Shown here one piece after another: positions 22,712 to 30,517 of a DNA stretch of 64,000 nt. The DNA comes from Octopus vulgaris (lineage: Eukaryota): assembly GCA_951406725.2 (NCBI GenBank), contig OX597817.1, forward strand, positions 48,484,001-48,548,000, read 5' to 3'. Position numbers and translations under genes: made by a program. Under the pieces are notes generated by a model. That model was not told the origin of the DNA. It saw only the letters and a program-made list of their open reading frames with translations, and made no database searches. Numbering within the stretch: position 1 is the stretch's first letter; every line of letters begins with the position of its first letter.

Positions 22712-23268
22712 TCTATATATATAAAACTGTAGTTGTGTGAGTGTCTGTCTCCTTCGATTTAGATTCCTAACTACTCCCACATTTTGCGGTGCAGTTTAAC
22801 CAAATTCGGGTATCTTATAGTCGTGATTCATATCGAGCCTGTCTGGGTATTAGCGCGCGTCTACGATGAGTCTACGATTTTAAAAATAATTTAACATAAT
22901 TTTTTATTCCATTTTAATGCATAATTTTTCGTGTGTCGATGGCGGCGGAGTTGGCGTCCACGCTCACACCTGTGTTGCTTCTCCCCCTTCTTCCCTCCCT
23001 CGTGAAGCTGTGGGGAAGGGAGTGTAAGGAAATCAACGTCGTAAAGCGTTGTCAAGGAGACCAGCGTTCTTTTAGAACAACGACTTCATGGCTTGAAGAC
23101 ACCAAAACAGAAAATGTCTACGATGAGTCAACGATTTAAAAAAAAATTACCATAATTATTTTTCCATTTTTAATGCATTTTTTTGCTATTTTTTGGCTAT
23201 AACTCTCTAAAAATGCTTATATAGTTATTTCCCTTACAAACCCGAGCAACGCCGGGCGATACTGCTAG
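22712..23268 (+). mobile_element. Complete non-autonomous Helitron
   Basis: a|TCtatatatataaa 5' end; 3' cccgagcaacgccgggcgatactgCTAG|t; A|T insertion site; internal ~60-bp duplication (22859 and 23116). Confidence 0.85.
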
Positions 23269-23642
23269 TATTTACATAAAAATGCCTAGGATCTGACAAC
23301 ATTGCTTTTTTAAAAAATGGTGAGTGTGTAATAATAAAAATTAGACGAAAGACATGTAAAATATAACACCCTATTTCGGATCATCAATAAGTTAAATACC
23401 GAAGTAAGCCTATACAATATAATAAAATGAAATAAACTAAGTCGAAGGTTTTTCCTAAGGAATATGTAGAAATATAAATAAACAAAATATATGCACGAGA
23501 CTTTGCTATACGGAATGAAATCTGCATAGCGTGAAACAAATCCATCGGTGCGATTACAGACTAGTCCAAGAATCAAAAATCAAAAATTCAAAAATACAAA
23601 AAGACAGAGCGGCACCATACAGACACGGGGCACACAAGAAAA

Positions 23643-24190
23643 TGTTTTAGCCCGAAGGCCGCGGCCATGCTGGGGCACCACCGCTGAATGAGCTACACTA
23701 GTTTGTGAATCCACCTCTGATACGTAGCACTTGATCAACAAGGGAGTTCGATGCTGCTGCCCGCATTCGTGTCTCCTGTCGTGAGGTAGGTTCATCTGGG
23801 ACTCCCAACAAGAAGAGATCCAGTTTAGTTTTAAAGAAACCCACATCCACACCATGTAAGTCTCTCAGGCATTTAGGGAGGATGTTAAAGAGCTGTGGTC
23901 ATCTGAAACCCAAGCTGTTGCAGTATCTGGACCTGTATTTTGATGGTGATGTTGGAATCCTTGGCACCACGCAGCGGCGCCCCGTTCTGCGGTTGGAGTA
24001 ACTTTGAATGCCAAAGTTTGGGACAAGACCCTCCAGGATTTTCCAGATGTATATCACTGCATATCTCTCCCGCCTCCGCTCCAGGGAGAAGAGGTTTAAT
24101 ACCTTCAGTCTTTCCCAGTAGCTGACATTTTGCATTGAGACGATTTTCTTTGTGTAGCTTCTCTGAATTGCTTCGAGTTCTGCTGTTTGT
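23643..24190 (-). mobile_element. CR1/L2-clade LINE 3' end (ORF2 C-terminus plus 3' tail)
   Basis: SYWERLKVLNLFSLERRRERYAVIYIWKILEGLVPN...FKTKLDLFLLGVPDEP; tail ggtgccccagcatggccgcggccttcgggctaaaaca. Confidence 0.85.
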
Positions 24191-24204
24191 TATAAATATA
24201 TATA

Positions 24205-24573
24205 TATATATGCATACATACATGCATGCATACATACACACACATACATACATACATACATACATACATAAATACATACATACATACAAAAATAAATACA
24301 TACATACATACATACATAAATACATGCATACATACATACAAAAATACATACATACATACATACAAAAATACATACATACATACAAAAATACATACATACA
24401 TACATAAATACATGCATACATACATACAAAAATACATACATACATACATACAAAAATACATACATACATACAAAAATACATACATACATACATAAATACA
24501 TGCATACATACATACAAAAATACATACATACATATATAGATACATACATACATAGATACACACACGTACATAC

Positions 24574-24604
<31 letters not shown>

Positions 24605-24640
24605 CATACATACATACATACATACATACATACATACACA
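24205..24640. repeat. Compound (TACA)n microsatellite with recurring variant blocks
   Basis: Alternating aaaaataca and taaatacatgca variants; a similar tract lies at 6910-7450. Confidence 0.9.
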
Positions 24641-24894
24641 AATGGTTACCCAATTACCTAGTTGTCTACATTCCAATGGAAGAACCCGTTTCTCTGCCTT
24701 ACAAAACAGGTTCTTTCCCTGTTACGTAAAATTTTAATTAGAAAAACAGATTACTTTCACAGATACATGCGTACGTATTTGTACATGCATACATACATAT
24801 ATACATATACGTATGTATACTTTCGGAAAATAATGTACGTATATATATATATATGCATACATACACACATTTATATATGTATATATATACATTT

Positions 24895-24964
<70 letters not shown>

Positions 24965-25097
24965 TCAATATCGGTGGCTTATATTTATTTGCTGCCGATA
25001 AATTTGGCGCGAGTGCGACGATTTGAAAATTTTAGGTCAGATATTGCCGAGGTAGCAAGAGGAATGCCTCGTGAAAAATATCTGTTCCGACTTGGCT

Positions 25098-25204
25098 ATT
25101 TCTTACTGATGAGTCTAAGGGCCTATGGTGGATTGGCTTGATTTAATTTAATCAGGTTAGTTTACCATTAAACGGTAGATGAAACGGTGCATCGTCTAAG
25201 AAAT
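25098..25204 (+). ncRNA. Type I hammerhead ribozyme, 491-bp unit 1
   Basis: Stem I atttctta/taagaaat; CTGATGA at 25106-25112; stem II gtcta/tagat with a long hairpin insert; GAAA; stem III ACGG-TGCA-TCGT; GUC cleavage triplet at 25194-25196. Confidence 0.9.
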
Positions 25205-25588
25205 TACAGGGTAAAAGTTTTTCAATTTTCTCCTGGTTTACGGAATTAATGTTATTTTGCGGTTAAAGCTTTTGGCTGTTATTTCTAGTGGGTGAATGGC
25301 CTATTATGGCCGTTCCTTGATTGTGATGTTGAACGTAAAAATGGTTTATGACTATTTAATTTTTTCCTACTAGGCCGCTGGTGGCAAAAGAATTCTACAA
25401 AATTTTTTTTGCCACCATATATTGATTAATTATGAATTTTCTGGTTAGTTCCGTAATGGAATCGGTGGCTTATATTTATTTGCTGCCGATAAATTTGGCG
25501 CGAGTGCGACGATTTGAAAATTTTAGGTCAGATATTGCCGAGGTAGCAAGAGGAATGCCTCGTGAAAAATATCTGTTCCGACTTGGCT

Positions 25589-25695
25589 ATTTCTTACTGA
25601 TGAGTCTAAGGGCCTATGGTGGATTGGCTTGATTTAATTTAATCAGGTTAGTTTACCATTAAACGGTAGATGAAACGGTGCATCGTCTAAGAAAT
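25589..25695 (+). ncRNA. Type I hammerhead ribozyme, 491-bp unit 2
   Basis: Same motif as 25098-25204. Confidence 0.9.
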
Positions 25696-26079
25696 TACAG
25701 GGTAAAAGTTTTTCAATTTTCTCCTGGTTTACGGAATTAATGTTATTTTGCGGTTAAAGCTTTTGGCTGTTATTTCTAGTGGGTGAATGGCCTATTATGG
25801 CCGTTCCTTGATTGTGATGTTGAACGTAAAAATGGTTTATGACTATTTAATTTTTTCCTACTAGGCCGCTGGTGGCAAAAGAATTCTACAAAATTTTTTT
25901 TGCCACCCTATATTGATTAATTATGAATTTTCTGGTTAGTTCCGTAATGGAATCGGTGGCTTATATTTATTTGCTGCCGATAAATTTGGCGCGAGTGCGA
26001 CGATTTGAAAATTTTAGGTCAGATATTGCCGAGGTAGCAAGAGGAATGCCTCGTGAAAAATATCTGTTCCGACTTGGCT

Positions 26080-26186
26080 ATTTCTTACTGATGAGTCTAA
26101 GGGCCTATGGTGGATTGGCTTGATTTAATTTAATCAGGTTAGTTTACCATTAAACGGTAGATGAAACGGTGCATCGTCTAAGAAAT
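26080..26186 (+). ncRNA. Type I hammerhead ribozyme, 491-bp unit 3
   Basis: Same motif as 25098-25204. Confidence 0.9.
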
Positions 26187-26569
26187 TACAGGGTAAAAGT
26201 TTTTCAATTTTCTCCTGGTTTACGGAATTAATGTTATTTTGCGGTTAAAGCTTTTGGCTGTTATTTCTAGTGGGTGAATGGCCTATTATGGCCGTTCCTT
26301 GATTGTGATGTTGAACGTAAAAATGGTTTATGACTATTTAATTTTTTCCTACTAGGCCGCTGGTGGCAAAAGAATTCTACAAAATTTTTTTGCCACCCTA
26401 TATTGATTAATTATGAATTTTCTGGTTAGTTCCGTAATGGAATCGGTGGCTTATATTTATTTGCTGCCGATAAATTTGGCGCGAGTGCGACGATTTGAAA
26501 ATTTTAGGTCAGATATTGCCGAGGTAGCAAGAGGAATGCCTCGTGAAAAATATCTGTTCCGACTTGGCT

Positions 26570-26676
26570 ATTTCTTACTGATGAGTCTAAGGGCCTATGG
26601 TGGATTGGCTTGATTTAATTTAATCAGGTTAGTTTACCATTAAACGGTAGATGAAACGGTGCATCGTCTAAGAAAT
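26570..26676 (+). ncRNA. Type I hammerhead ribozyme, 491-bp unit 4
   Basis: Same motif as 25098-25204. Confidence 0.9.
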
Positions 26677-26794
26677 TACAGGGTAAAAGTTTTTCAATTT
26701 TCTCCTGGTTTACGGAATTAATGTTATTTTGCGGTTAAAGCTTTTGGCTGTTATTTCTAGTGGGTGAATGGCCTATTATGGCCGTTCCTTGATT

Positions 26795-26834
<40 letters not shown>

Positions 26835-26978
26835 GAGGCGCAATGGCCCAGTGGTTAGGGTAGCGGACTCGCGGTCGTAGGATCGCGGTTTCGATTCCAC
26901 GTAAATTTCACGAGCAGGCTGTTCCGTTGATCGGATCAACCGGAACCCTCGTCGTCGTAACCGACGGAGTGCTTCCAT

Positions 26979-27064
<86 letters not shown>

Positions 27065-27065
<1 letters not shown>

Positions 27066-27244
27066 CTCTTTTACTCGTTTCAGTCATTTGACTGTGGCCA
27101 TGCTGGAGCTCCGCGTTTAGTCGAGCAAATCGACCCCAGGACTTATTCTTTGTAAGCCTAGTACTTATTCTATCGTTCTATTTTGCAGAACCGCTAAGTT
27201 ACGGGGACGAAAACACACCAGCATCGGTTGTCAAGCGATATTGG

Positions 27245-27324
<80 letters not shown>

Positions 27325-27485
27325 GACGGGCTTCTTTCAGTTTCCGTCTACCAAATCTACTCACAAGGCTTTGGTTGACCCGAGGCTATAGTAGAAGACA
27401 CTTGCCCAAGGTGCCACGCAGAGGGACTGAACCCGGAACCAGGTGGTTGGTAAGCAAGCTACTTACCACACAGCCACTCCTACGC

Positions 27486-27487
<2 letters not shown>
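27065..27487 (-). mobile_element. SINE family B
   Basis: Family match. Other copies at 5916-6165(+), 7455-7765(-), 20530-20665(-), 31612-31980(-), 36320-36685(-), 38130-38270(-) and 38760-38920(+). Confidence 0.85.
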
Positions 27488-27576
<89 letters not shown>

Positions 27577-28293
27577 CATAAGTGCTGATGCAATTCATTC
27601 GAATAAAATGTACTCCCAGGCGGTGCTCCAGCATGGCCACAGTCTAATGACTGAAACAAATGATAGAAGATACACATATATGTGTTCGTGTGTATGTGTG
27701 TGTGTGTGTGCGTGTATACGTGCAATCATTTGACTGCGGCCATGCTGGAGCACCATATGGAGTCTTTGCTAGTTAACTTGAATATTTTCAGGAACTGTGG
27801 TATTACACCGTTGACACAGGGTAGGTCGTTCTGAGAATATAAACTATTTTCTCTCTCTCTCTCTCTCTCCCTCTTTTTTTTCTAGTGGGGTAATATTTTT
27901 CATAGCCCGTTTTGTATACGACTTTACTTATAATTTGTTTTACTTTCTTATGTATAATTATTAGTTTTATTTATTTATTTATTTATTTATTCATTTATTT
28001 ATTCATTTATTCAATTTTTTTTTTTGCCTTCAGGCATTGAAAGACATACTGTGTGGCAAAAGAAACAAAACAAGCAGGCTGAGTAAGAAGGAACAGTCGA
28101 ATGCTATAGCATTTAACTAAGAGCTGGGTGATGTTTAAAAACAAAATCCAACAATAGAACACATTCCATCATGATGACAGCGAGTACAATAGTGTAGTTC
28201 TCCCGTTCCGTCAACCTTGGTTGGCCCTGTTTCTCTATTTCTCCCGCCGTCTCTCTTTCTAAGCCTCTTTCTTTCACCCCTCCGGTTCCCACA

Positions 28294-28375
<82 letters not shown>

Positions 28376-28404
28376 GTCTGTCTGTCTATCTATCTATCTT
28401 TCTT

Positions 28405-28484
<80 letters not shown>

Positions 28485-28682
28485 AACACACGGTTACACA
28501 CATGTAAATGCAAGCACCCACCATGTATGTGTGTGTGCGTGTGTACATATATTTTTGTCTTCGGCTTAAGAGTCTGACAGACGTCCGCGATACAAAGACC
28601 TTTGAGGATGCGAAACCATTGGTCACTCTATGATTGGACATAAACTTAATTACTTAATATATATGTGTGTGAGTGTATGTGA

Positions 28683-28716
<34 letters not shown>

Positions 28717-28899
28717 CAAAAATGGGACAAGAACCCAAAACATCCTGACAGTTAGGTGATAGAAAAAAGGGACAACAAAACATCCAGACAGACGATACAA
28801 AGAAAACAAGGTCGGGCCATTCGGAGTTTTCTTTCCTCAGTCGAGTTCCAGATTATCTTTGCAATTTCGGCTGGTTATACACGAGATTGCTCCAGTCTG

Positions 28900-30517
28900 G
28901 CTAACTACTGCAGGAAGGTCTAAAAGTGTAGTGCAACGAATTGTAGCTCGTTTTAAGTCATCAGGATCGACATATGCTAAACCCCAAACCGGTAGACCTC
29001 GTAAAACTTTACCAAAACAGGATCGTATTATGGTTAGAATGTTACTGAAGGAGAGGTTTAAGAATGCTGCTGAGATATCCCGCGAGTTTGGCTCCACTTC
29101 CGATATCAACGTATCGCGTAAAACAATTTCTCGCAGGTTACGAGGTCCTGGGTTGCTTGCTCGGGCACCGACAAAGAAACATCTGATCTCCAAGAAGAAT
29201 CAAAGAACCTGTCTTCGTTTTGCTCACGAACATGTCGTTTTGGACAGAATAACAAGGGTCGCAGGTTCATTTTAGCGATGAATCGAAGTTTAATGTGATT
29301 GGTTCCGACGGCGAGATGTACGTCCGACGAAGTGGCGAAAGGTTATCTTGTGCACGGGAGAAGCACACAGTGAAATATGAAGGAAGCAGTGTATTGGTAT
29401 GGGGAGCTAGCAGAATCGTTAGCACGCCGGATGAAATGCTTAGCGGTATTTCGCCTGCCACTACGTCCTGAGTTCGAATTCCGCCGAGGTCGACTTTGCC
29501 TTTCATCCTTTCGGGGTCGATTAAATAAGTACCAGTTACGCACTGGGGTCGATATAATCGACTTGATCCCCATGTCCGTCCTTGTTGGTCCTCTCTGTGT
29601 TTAGCCTCTTGTGGGTAGTAAAGAAATGGGTATTTCGCCTGCCGTTACGTTCTGAGTTCAAATTCCGCCGAGGTCGTCTTTGCCTTTCATCCTTTCGGGG
29701 TCGATAAATTAAGTACCAGTTACGCACTGGGGTCGATATAATCGACTTAATCCGTTTGTCTGTCCTTGTTTGTCTCCTCAGTGTTTAGCCCCTTGTGGGT
29801 AGTAAAGAAATAGGTATGGGGAGTGACCTCTGCTGCTGATCCTGGTCCATTTATTCGTCCAGAAGGGACTGTCAATGCTGAAATCTACGAACAGATTCTT
29901 CGACAGCATGTCCTTCCACATCTCTGATCCTCGTCAATTCAGCCTCTTATCTTCGTACAGGACAACGCTCTCTGACACACTGCGAAGAGAGTCAAAGATT
30001 GTTTTGAGAGATGAAGGGGTTGATCTCATGGACTGGTCACCTCAAATTTCCGATCTCAACCCTCTAGAAAACGTTTGGAAGATTATTGGATGGGACGCGA
30101 AGGAGAAATCCAAATAACCAAGATGAACTCTGGGAATTATTGAAAAACGAATGGAAAATTAATCCATCATTTTGCAAGAAATTAATTCAGTCTTTTGGTG
30201 TCAAGGAGTTCATTGATATTAAAGCGATGTTCACAAAAATTTAATAGTTAGGGTTTCTTTTTTGTTTTTGCTCCATTTTTTTCATTGTTTTTCTAAGTTA
30301 CCCTTAACTTTTGGCTGTTGCAGTTTGGAAGATTATTTGTTTATTTCCTCATAACTTACGAAATATTTATTCCTTTTATTTGAAATTTTCACGAAAGATA
30401 GATATTAGATATATCTAAATATGTGTAAAATATCTAGTCCCAACGTATTGTTAATCTTCCATAATAAATATTTCAATACACTTGTTCTTACTGACCCTTA
30501 TATTACGGCTGCTACTG
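28900..30517 (+). mobile_element. Tc1-like DD34E transposon relic, interrupted by a SINE dimer
   Basis: GRPRKT, VSRKTISRRL, HFSDESKFN, VLVWG|VWG, QDNA, WSPQISDLNPLENVW; right end ...ctactg|ta; frameshifts and stops. Confidence 0.9.
29404..29812 (+). mobile_element. SINE family A dimer inserted in Tc1
   Basis: TSD ggtatggggag at 29396-29406 and 29813-29823. Confidence 0.9.

What the first reader, a model, noticed from the sequence alone, without database searches (positions are those of the whole stretch)
24971..25460. The 491-nt unit folds strand-specifically, with G·U-rich helices and an unusually extended stem II
Seen: the stem II insert tggtggattggcttgatt / aatcaggttagtttacca forms 18 contiguous pairs, 6 of them G·U. 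Other helices: tcggtggc/gctgccga, cagatatt/aatatctg enclosing cgaggta/tgcctcg, aatggcc/ggccgtt, ggtggcaaaagaatt/aatttttttgccacc, and long-range ttacggaattaa/ttagttccgtaa. G·U pairs work only on the + (HHR) strand and become A·C on the other. Inferred: selection on RNA structure, as in a viroid-like branched circle, rather than a DNA cruciform.
Basis: partly seen in the sequence, partly recalled or inferred. Interest (0 to 1): 0.75.

Follow-up and report, generated by a model that had tools for sequence, protein, structure and literature searches.

The report
Hammerhead retrozyme with Penelope-type insertion ends
This 491-base tandem repeat carries a complete hammerhead ribozyme motif and sits at thousands of copies in TA microsatellites as two outward-facing arms with two fixed ends, so it is likely a small circular RNA that a Penelope-like retrotransposon enzyme copies round and round into the genome.

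Summary
The helices are real: the stem II insert is 18 pairs (12 Watson-Crick, 6 G·U), and the + strand circle folds at -142 kcal/mol (z -4.9) against -85 (z -2.4). But 41 of the 57 kcal gap is base composition. The excess beyond it appears only in this subfamily (1 of 6 copies tested), covariation is thin, and there is none in the 18-bp helix. RNA-level selection is still supported: the hammerhead core varies only at N7 and the cleavage base, the loop III palindrome is kept (UGCA/UAUA), and inherited helix variants keep pairing more often than private ones (21:11 vs 31:60). The element is a non-LTR retrozyme, at least 2,540 ribozyme copies in a 2.8-Gb animal genome. Insertions lie in (TA)n as divergent arms ending at unit positions 358 and 464. 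All 84 of 155 loci with both ends typed have one of each, the Penelope 'tail' signature (here 106 nt). Arms run through the cleavage site up to 19 times, and both arms share locus-unique variants. Most likely a Penelope-like dimer primes twice on one ribozyme-made circle. Cleavage, the circle and the partner enzyme are not shown.

The parts
24957..26799 (+). Whole insertion: short inverted arm plus 3.73 direct copies of the 491-nt unit (copies start 24970, 25461, 25952, 26442; copies 1-3 differ at 1-2 positions)
24957..24971 (-). 15-nt inverted arm (reverse complement of unit 450-464), ending at the fixed '464' terminus
   Evidence: same terminus at other loci
24840..24956 (.). (TA)n target microsatellite, left
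26800..26831 (.). (AT)n target microsatellite, right; the direct arm ends at 26799 = fixed '358' terminus
25098..25204 (+). Type I hammerhead, copy 1: stem I 25098-25105/25197-25204; core CUGAUGA 25106-25112; stem II base 25113-25117/25176-25180 (10.1-11.1 is G·U here, A-U in other subfamilies); GAAA 25181-25184; weak stem III with self-complementary CGGUGCAUCG 25185-25194; GUC, predicted cleavage after 25196 (repeated at 25687, 26178, 26668)
   Evidence: (Rfam RF00163 model 1-45/45, 22 bits, below the 34-bit gathering score)
25126..25167 (+). Stem II extension: 18-19 bp hairpin with 6 G·U, set off from the stem II base by an 8x8-nt internal loop
25295..25327 (+). Hairpin aatggcc/ggccgtt followed by the '358' terminus (25327 in copy 1): inferred reverse-transcription start site 1
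25380..25433 (+). Hairpin ggtggc/gccacc followed by the '464' terminus (25433 in copy 1): inferred start site 2; 25328-25433 is the 106-nt 'tail'
25238..25456 (+). Long-range helix 25238-25249/25445-25456, predicted to close the domain that holds both fixed termini
   Evidence: mean pair probability 0.93
24971..25084 (+). 5' hairpins (24971-24998; 25038-25084 enclosing 25048-25071): predicted in this subfamily, partly broken in others

Best explanation
The unit is a hammerhead-bearing tandem retroelement of the non-LTR retrozyme kind, inserted in (TA)n as two divergent arms with two fixed ends, and it is likely copied from a self-cleaved, ligated RNA circle by a Penelope-like (PLE) reverse transcriptase. 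Shown from sequence: the ribozyme motif, thousands of dispersed young copies in several subfamilies, the (TA)n target, the strict 358/464 pairing of ends, multi-unit arms, and one haplotype across both arms. Inferred: (1) multimeric transcripts cleave at GUC/GUA, probably as double hammerheads through the palindromic loop III; (2) the 491-nt monomer is ligated to a compact circle; (3) a PLE GIY-YIG/RT dimer nicks both strands of a TA tract about 10-15 nt apart and primes reverse transcription at two internal sites 106 nt apart on the same circle; (4) each RT rolls round the circle a variable number of times, and the two cDNA 5' ends join by microhomology. The G·U-rich helices would reflect selection for a self-paired circle with a free ribozyme, not for each particular helix.
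For: Ribozyme on + only; HHR-constrained circular fold costs 3.9 kcal/mol; loop III 10-mer self-duplex -14.1 vs hairpin -0.2 kcal/mol. Palindrome kept as UAUA in another subfamily. Exact stem III motif counts 956 + 769 + 815 (backwards controls 0). Of 155 loci, 84 have both ends typed and all are 358+464; none has the same end twice; 63 have one end typed, 8 none. Target duplications of 10-15 nt where the target is not pure TA (L002, L022, L032, L036, L055, L163). 98 of 214 arms cross the cleavage junction twice or more, up to 19 times; 396 of 398 crossings have no indel. 40 locus-unique variants are fixed on both arms in 28 arrays; arms differ 0.23% vs 0.8-1.9% between arrays of one subfamily. 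PLEs prime at two internal RNA sites that define the tail, cut AT-rich DNA on both strands and are predicted dimers (PMC11167929). A young intact Neptune-type PLE (811-aa ORF) in this genome makes the same two-ended (TA)n insertions with a ~39-nt tail.
Against: No cleavage, circle or transcript was observed; the runs laid are contigs whose RNA status is a guess. The Neptune PLE found shares no sequence with the unit, and its tail is 39 nt, not 106, so the partner is unidentified. 10.1-11.1 is G·U/A-U instead of the conserved G-C (PMC4209133), and 8 of 9 predicted Xenopus retrozymes did not cleave in vitro (bioRxiv 10.64898/2026.07.22.740005). 'Locus-unique' means unique among 118 sampled arrays, so an unsampled source array could carry the variant. 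One of five two-armed Neptune loci shown (L205) has the long end twice, and family 2 has the same end twice in 2 of 25. At least four loci join an arm of this unit to an arm of another element (L051, L146, L173, L162), which a single-circle model does not predict. Covariation is thin.
Confidence: 0.72

Rival explanations
1. Non-autonomous PLE derivative copied from long linear multimeric transcripts; the ribozyme only trims transcripts, and no circle is the template.
For: In vitro, PAc used uncleaved RNA and ribozyme mutants did not affect insertion (PMC11167929). Ends and targets fit equally well. Hetero-armed loci suggest two RNAs can be used. A short element in this genome has both arms starting at one fixed 5' point (query position 75-77 in 12 of 15 matches), as a linear template would give.
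Against: Array-wide variants fixed on all copies of both arms need a one-monomer bottleneck. Arms reach 19 crossings, with 5' ends spread over the whole unit. Linear copying can only shorten arrays.
Confidence: 0.17
2. Endogenised viroid-like replicon that also copies RNA-to-RNA, with genomic arrays as by-products.
For: Branched circle of viroid size. Array-wide unique variants are richer in A>G plus T>C (30 of 70) than private ones (41 of 290). Subfamilies differ 3-11% while each is young.
Against: No ribozyme core on the minus strand. Early RT errors in source copies plus later DNA decay explain the spectrum. Every typed insertion has PLE anatomy.
Confidence: 0.07
3. Satellite or minisatellite DNA spread by unequal crossover or DNA circles; helices are DNA cruciforms or chance in a G/T-skewed sequence.
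For: WC-only folding is above chance on both strands. Most of the strand gap is composition. An 18-bp helix arises in 9 of 300 shuffles.
Against: One-strand ribozyme with variation confined to its free positions. Fixed paired termini, inverted arms and target duplications. Dispersal over at least 20 contigs.
Confidence: 0.04

Closest known systems
Metazoan non-LTR retrozymes (Cervera and de la Peña 2020, PMC7229834; Li, Clavereau and Pollet 2026, bioRxiv 10.64898/2026.07.22.740005)
   Same: Tandem repeats with one type I hammerhead per unit, low GC (37%), no ORF/LTR/PBS/PPT, self-paired predicted circle with accessible ribozyme, weak palindromic helix III, target duplication longer than 4 bp, co-occurrence with PLEs.
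   Different: 491 nt is above the 170-400 nt of the 2020 paper but within the 51-972 bp of the 2026 preprint. Stem II carries a ~58-nt extension instead of a short loop 2, and 10.1-11.1 is G·U/A-U. The parts of those papers I read do not describe fixed paired termini, inverted arms or a microsatellite target; the 2020 supplement could not be read.
Penelope-like elements (Neptune, Naiad, Poseidon) and their 'tail' (Craig et al. 2021, 10.1101/2021.04.23.441226; Frangieh et al. 2024, PMC11167929)
   Same: Partial tandems, inverted 5'-truncated copy, tail on one end only, two internal start sites, (TA)n bias; non-autonomous multi-copy head-to-tail Chlamys elements are noted in Craig et al.
   Different: No RT/EN ORF; tail 106 nt against the usual 30-40; full hammerhead with helix III, not the minimal pLTR variant; no sequence match to the one PLE family examined.
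[quoted passage not shown]
   Same: Size, branched predicted circle, hammerhead, possible dimeric cleavage.
   Different: Ribozyme in one polarity only and type I; the element exists as thousands of chromosomal DNA copies; no evidence of RNA-RNA replication.

Membership tests
Type I hammerhead ribozyme | Core CUGANGA, GAAA and NUH around three helices, closed by helix I | tested here: met
   fixed core positions unchanged across 7 subfamily clusters
Type I hammerhead ribozyme | Reaches the Rfam RF00163 gathering score | tested here: not met
   22 bits vs 34, E 0.031, full model matched with a long insert in stem II
Type I hammerhead ribozyme | Canonical G10.1-C11.1 pair and loop1-loop2 contact | tested here: not met
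   G·U or A-U. A 4-bp GGCU/GGCC contact between stem I and the stem II internal loop is visible but was not tested
Type I hammerhead ribozyme | Self-cleavage at the NUH site | not testable with these tools
   needs in vitro transcription; genomic 5' ends give no clear signal
Non-LTR retrozyme | Tandem units each with a type I hammerhead, at least two in a row | tested here: met
   four ribozymes at 490-491-nt spacing; many such arrays
Non-LTR retrozyme | Non-coding, no LTR/PBS/PPT, dispersed, with target duplication over 4 bp | tested here: met
   arms abut (TA)n directly; duplications of 10-15 nt; no long ORF from the unit appears in the ORF scan (170 aa or more); PBS/PPT not searched separately
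Non-LTR retrozyme | Expressed as linear and circular monomer RNA | tested here: inconclusive
   unit present in contigs of four runs guessed to be RNA; contigs cannot separate circle from tandem or RNA from DNA
Non-autonomous PLE-mobilised element | Two fixed 3' termini (tail) on opposite ends, inverted 5'-truncated arm, AT-rich target | tested here: met
   84 of 84 doubly typed loci among 155
Non-autonomous PLE-mobilised element | Sequence shared with the pLTR of an autonomous PLE | tested here: inconclusive
   none with the one Neptune-type family examined; only 136 of 23,330 candidates were scored
Viroid (Avsunviroidae-like) | Ribozymes in both polarities, no DNA phase | tested here: not met
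   no minus-strand core; thousands of DNA copies

The most novel reading that the evidence does not exclude
These arrays are a genomic record of bidirectional rolling-circle target-primed reverse transcription. One PLE dimer grips a single ribozyme-made circle at two hairpin modules 106 nt apart and copies it from both DNA nicks. The circle carries a non-canonical hammerhead whose loop 2 is replaced by an internal loop plus an 18-bp G·U-rich arm. At least three small-RNA families in this genome use the same route.
Probability: 0.45. Interest if true: 0.72.

Novelty: new variant of a known kind. Interest (0 to 1): 0.55.

Why it matters
How animal retrozymes get back into the genome has been proposed (circle template, PLE helper) but argued from co-occurrence and phylogeny. 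Here the insertions carry the PLE two-site signature, plus signs of copying from one monomer, in a young high-copy family. The two start sites are mapped to the base, and an intact PLE protein lies in the same genome. The published in vitro PLE priming assay can therefore test the model directly with a 491-nt circle. The extended-stem-II hammerhead falls below the Rfam threshold, so such families are easy to miss. The folding claim on its own is ordinary for retrozymes.

Tried and rejected
ADAR editing as the source of the G·U pairs: no A>G over T>C bias in pooled classes. It was 14:5 in locus-unique both-arm variants (p=0.004) but 8:10 once states seen in other subfamilies were removed. A retest named in advance gave 1:0 in 17 new arrays (14 of 31 dropped for under 96.5% identity) and no array-wide variant in 30 family-2 loci. 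Not supported.

cDNA 5' ends stopping at the cleavage site: 6 of 214 within 226-230 (expected 2.2), 0 of 54 in new loci. Genome-wide near-fold-back junctions number 31 beside the site vs about 32 in a control window and cluster on short palindromes; in GUA subfamilies the site is itself a TATA palindrome. Rejected, though L002 has both arms starting exactly at 228.

General strand-specific folding of the family: not seen in five other subfamily copies.

Rfam gathering scan of the window: nothing. No RNA holder listed among runs. Partner PLE by sequence similarity: none; no hammerhead found by pattern in five Neptune loci. ARAGORN 23000-30500: none. Earlier scan notes: none. Literature searches for octopus or cephalopod hammerheads/retrozymes and for extended stem II listed no description of this family.

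One array was entered twice (L104/L108); one search repeats the terminus and pair tests without it, with the same pair counts.

Full report
OBSERVATION. The window holds 3.73 copies of a 491-nt unit at 24970-26799 between (TA)n tracts. The stem II insert is 12 Watson-Crick plus 6 G·U pairs; the 15-bp ggtggc helix is as written only in copy 3. Folded as a circle, the + strand gives -142.0 kcal/mol (z -4.9, 0 of 60 shuffles) and the - strand -84.7 (z -2.4). Without G·U both strands score alike (z -2.8, -3.3). Because the unit is G>C and U>A skewed, shuffles alone give a 41.5±5.3 kcal gap. The window unit's 57.3 is beyond that (z -3.0, 0 of 40), but copies from five other subfamilies are not (z +0.6 to -0.9). 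A helix of 18 bp or more appears in 9 of 300 shuffles. The ribozyme domain alone is strand-specific (z -4.5 vs -1.3).

THE RIBOZYME. Each unit has a type I hammerhead on the + strand only: stem I of 8 bp, CUGAUGA, a 5-bp stem II base, an 8x8 internal loop and the long hairpin, GAAA, a weak stem III, and GUC at 25194-25196. Rfam RF00163 matches end to end at 22 bits, below its cut-off of 34, with the insert in stem II. Forcing the active fold in the circle costs 3.9 kcal/mol. The stem III 10-mer is self-complementary (duplex -14.1 vs hairpin -0.2), the arrangement that lets tandem hammerheads cleave as dimers (PMC4209133, passages). Pair 10.1-11.1 is G·U here and A-U elsewhere, not the conserved G-C, so activity is not assured. 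A separate family in this genome also has a long stem II (L212, L213, L216), so the extension is not unique.

THE FAMILY. The genome is 2.8 Gb in 227 contigs. Size, about 30 large contigs and microsatellite density suggest an octopus; that is my recollection, not a tool result. Exact 23-nt ribozyme motifs number 956, 769 and 815 for three variants. The repeat is also listed in runs of four other coded organisms, and contigs of those four runs were laid on it. I fetched 155 distinct loci; 68 full-length representatives fall into 8 clusters 3-11% apart.

SELECTION ON RNA. Across clusters the core varies only at N7 (all four bases) and the cleavage base C/A. Loop III changes UGCA to UAUA, keeping the palindrome. 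On an alignment of 31 of the 68 representatives, 96.7% of cells pair and 4 of 87 pairs show double changes (2 of 500 shuffles; relatedness is not controlled). Three are in ribozyme stems I and II, and none is in the 18-bp helix, where pair 160-195 is unpaired in 23 of 31. Several 5' hairpin pairs are broken in whole subfamilies. A cleaner test compares variants private to one copy (mostly post-insertion) with variants fixed across an array (carried by the template). In helix columns, array-wide variants keep:break pairing 21:11, private ones 31:60 (p=0.003). Removing states found in other subfamilies gives 12:10 (p=0.09); WC>G·U versus WC>A·C is 13:5 vs 24:25 (p=0.11) (118 arrays in clusters of 5 or more). 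Selection on RNA pairing is real but modest.

INSERTION ANATOMY. This is the main result. Insertions are typically an inverted arm plus a direct arm, joined at their 5' ends, each ending against (AT)n at unit position 358 or 464. Of 155 loci, 84 have both ends typed and every one is 358 with 464; 63 have one typed end and 8 none. The window is such a case: a 15-nt inverted arm ending at 464 (24957-24971) and a direct arm ending at 358 (26799). Imperfect targets show 10-15-nt duplications. This is the PLE pattern: inverted truncated copy, tail on one end, (TA)n bias (Craig et al., passages). In vitro the tail is the distance between two internal RT start sites used by a protein that cuts both strands of AT-rich DNA and is predicted to be a dimer (PMC11167929, main text). 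The tail here is 106 nt, and each terminus follows a GC-rich hairpin and a UUGAUU motif.

TEMPLATE. The termini are not the cleavage site. 98 of 214 arms cross that site twice or more, up to 19 times, and 396 of 398 crossings are clean. Forty variants unique to one sampled locus are fixed on both arms in 28 arrays, and arms differ far less than arrays do (0.23% vs 0.8-1.9%). With the strict alternation of ends, this points to one monomer circle read from two sites. Caveats: uniqueness is within my sample. At least four loci join an arm of this unit to an arm of a different element; these may be two-RNA events or deletions between neighbouring insertions. 5' ends do not pile up at the cleavage site.

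PARTNER. A young PLE (811-aa ORF; CxxxxCxxC motif and C-terminal GIY-YIG, the Neptune/Nematis layout; Pfam GIY-YIG E 0.01, below its cut-off) makes the same two-ended (TA)n insertions with a ~39-nt tail. It shares no sequence with the unit; only 136 of 23,330 candidates were scored, so the true helper is open. A second, 360-nt hammerhead-like repeat (760 candidates) shows the same anatomy with a ~46-nt tail, opposite ends in 21 of 25 two-armed loci.

EXPRESSION. No listed holder is on record as RNA. Four runs guessed to be RNA contain contigs covering nearly all of the unit (28-30 of 30 bins). This shows neither transcription nor circles.

COMPARISON. It meets the sequence definition of a non-LTR retrozyme (PMC7229834, results and discussion read; supplement unreadable, and it may include cephalopod examples; bioRxiv 10.64898/2026.07.22.740005, abstract to discussion read, supplements closed; PMC7761336, passages). 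Those texts propose circle templating and a PLE helper from co-occurrence and phylogeny. I found no description of this family or of paired fixed termini in retrozymes in searches, which cover only the held open library.

VERDICT. Observation partly confirmed; interpretation partly supported. A new variant of a known kind, whose insertion anatomy makes the retrozyme mobilisation model directly testable. Interest 0.55.

Noticed in passing
L051:1358-1892 (G000:C1:70528557-70529091) and loci: Second tandem family, 360 nt, with a hammerhead-like motif (U4 replaced by C, palindromic loop III) followed by a stretch complementary to its own core. It shows the same two-armed (TA)n insertions with a ~46-nt tail. 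In L051 one of its arms is joined directly to an arm of the 491-nt unit.
   Followed up: partly
L146:1806-1890, L173:2148-2345, L240, L244: Third short element with two-armed (TA)n insertions whose arms mostly start at one fixed 5' point, as from a short linear RNA; it forms hybrid insertions with the 491-nt unit.
   Followed up: partly
L217, L208, L100:2-859: Very young Neptune-type PLE with an intact 811-aa ORF, near-identical copies, ~39-nt tail and (TA)n target; no hammerhead found by pattern in the loci scanned.
   Followed up: partly
L212, L213, L216 (about 1501-1608): Another hammerhead family (108-nt Rfam hits above cut-off) with a long stem II insert, unrelated in sequence.
   Followed up: no
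window 25055-25064 and 25085-25096 (unit 86-95 and 116-127): Most variable part of the unit; the two segments are partly complementary and change together in some subfamilies, suggesting an alternative helix that competes with the 5' hairpins.
   Followed up: no
window 25094-25097 and 25120-25123: Possible 4-bp contact (GGCU with GGCC) between the stem I internal loop and the stem II internal loop, standing in for the loop1-loop2 interaction.
   Followed up: no
window 26832-26980: tRNA-like SINE head directly after the right (AT)n tract (judged by eye; ARAGORN calls no tRNA).
   Followed up: no
L034 (G000:C10:17474891-17483867): Single arm of about 9 kb, 19 crossings of the cleavage site, the longest array seen.
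   Followed up: partly
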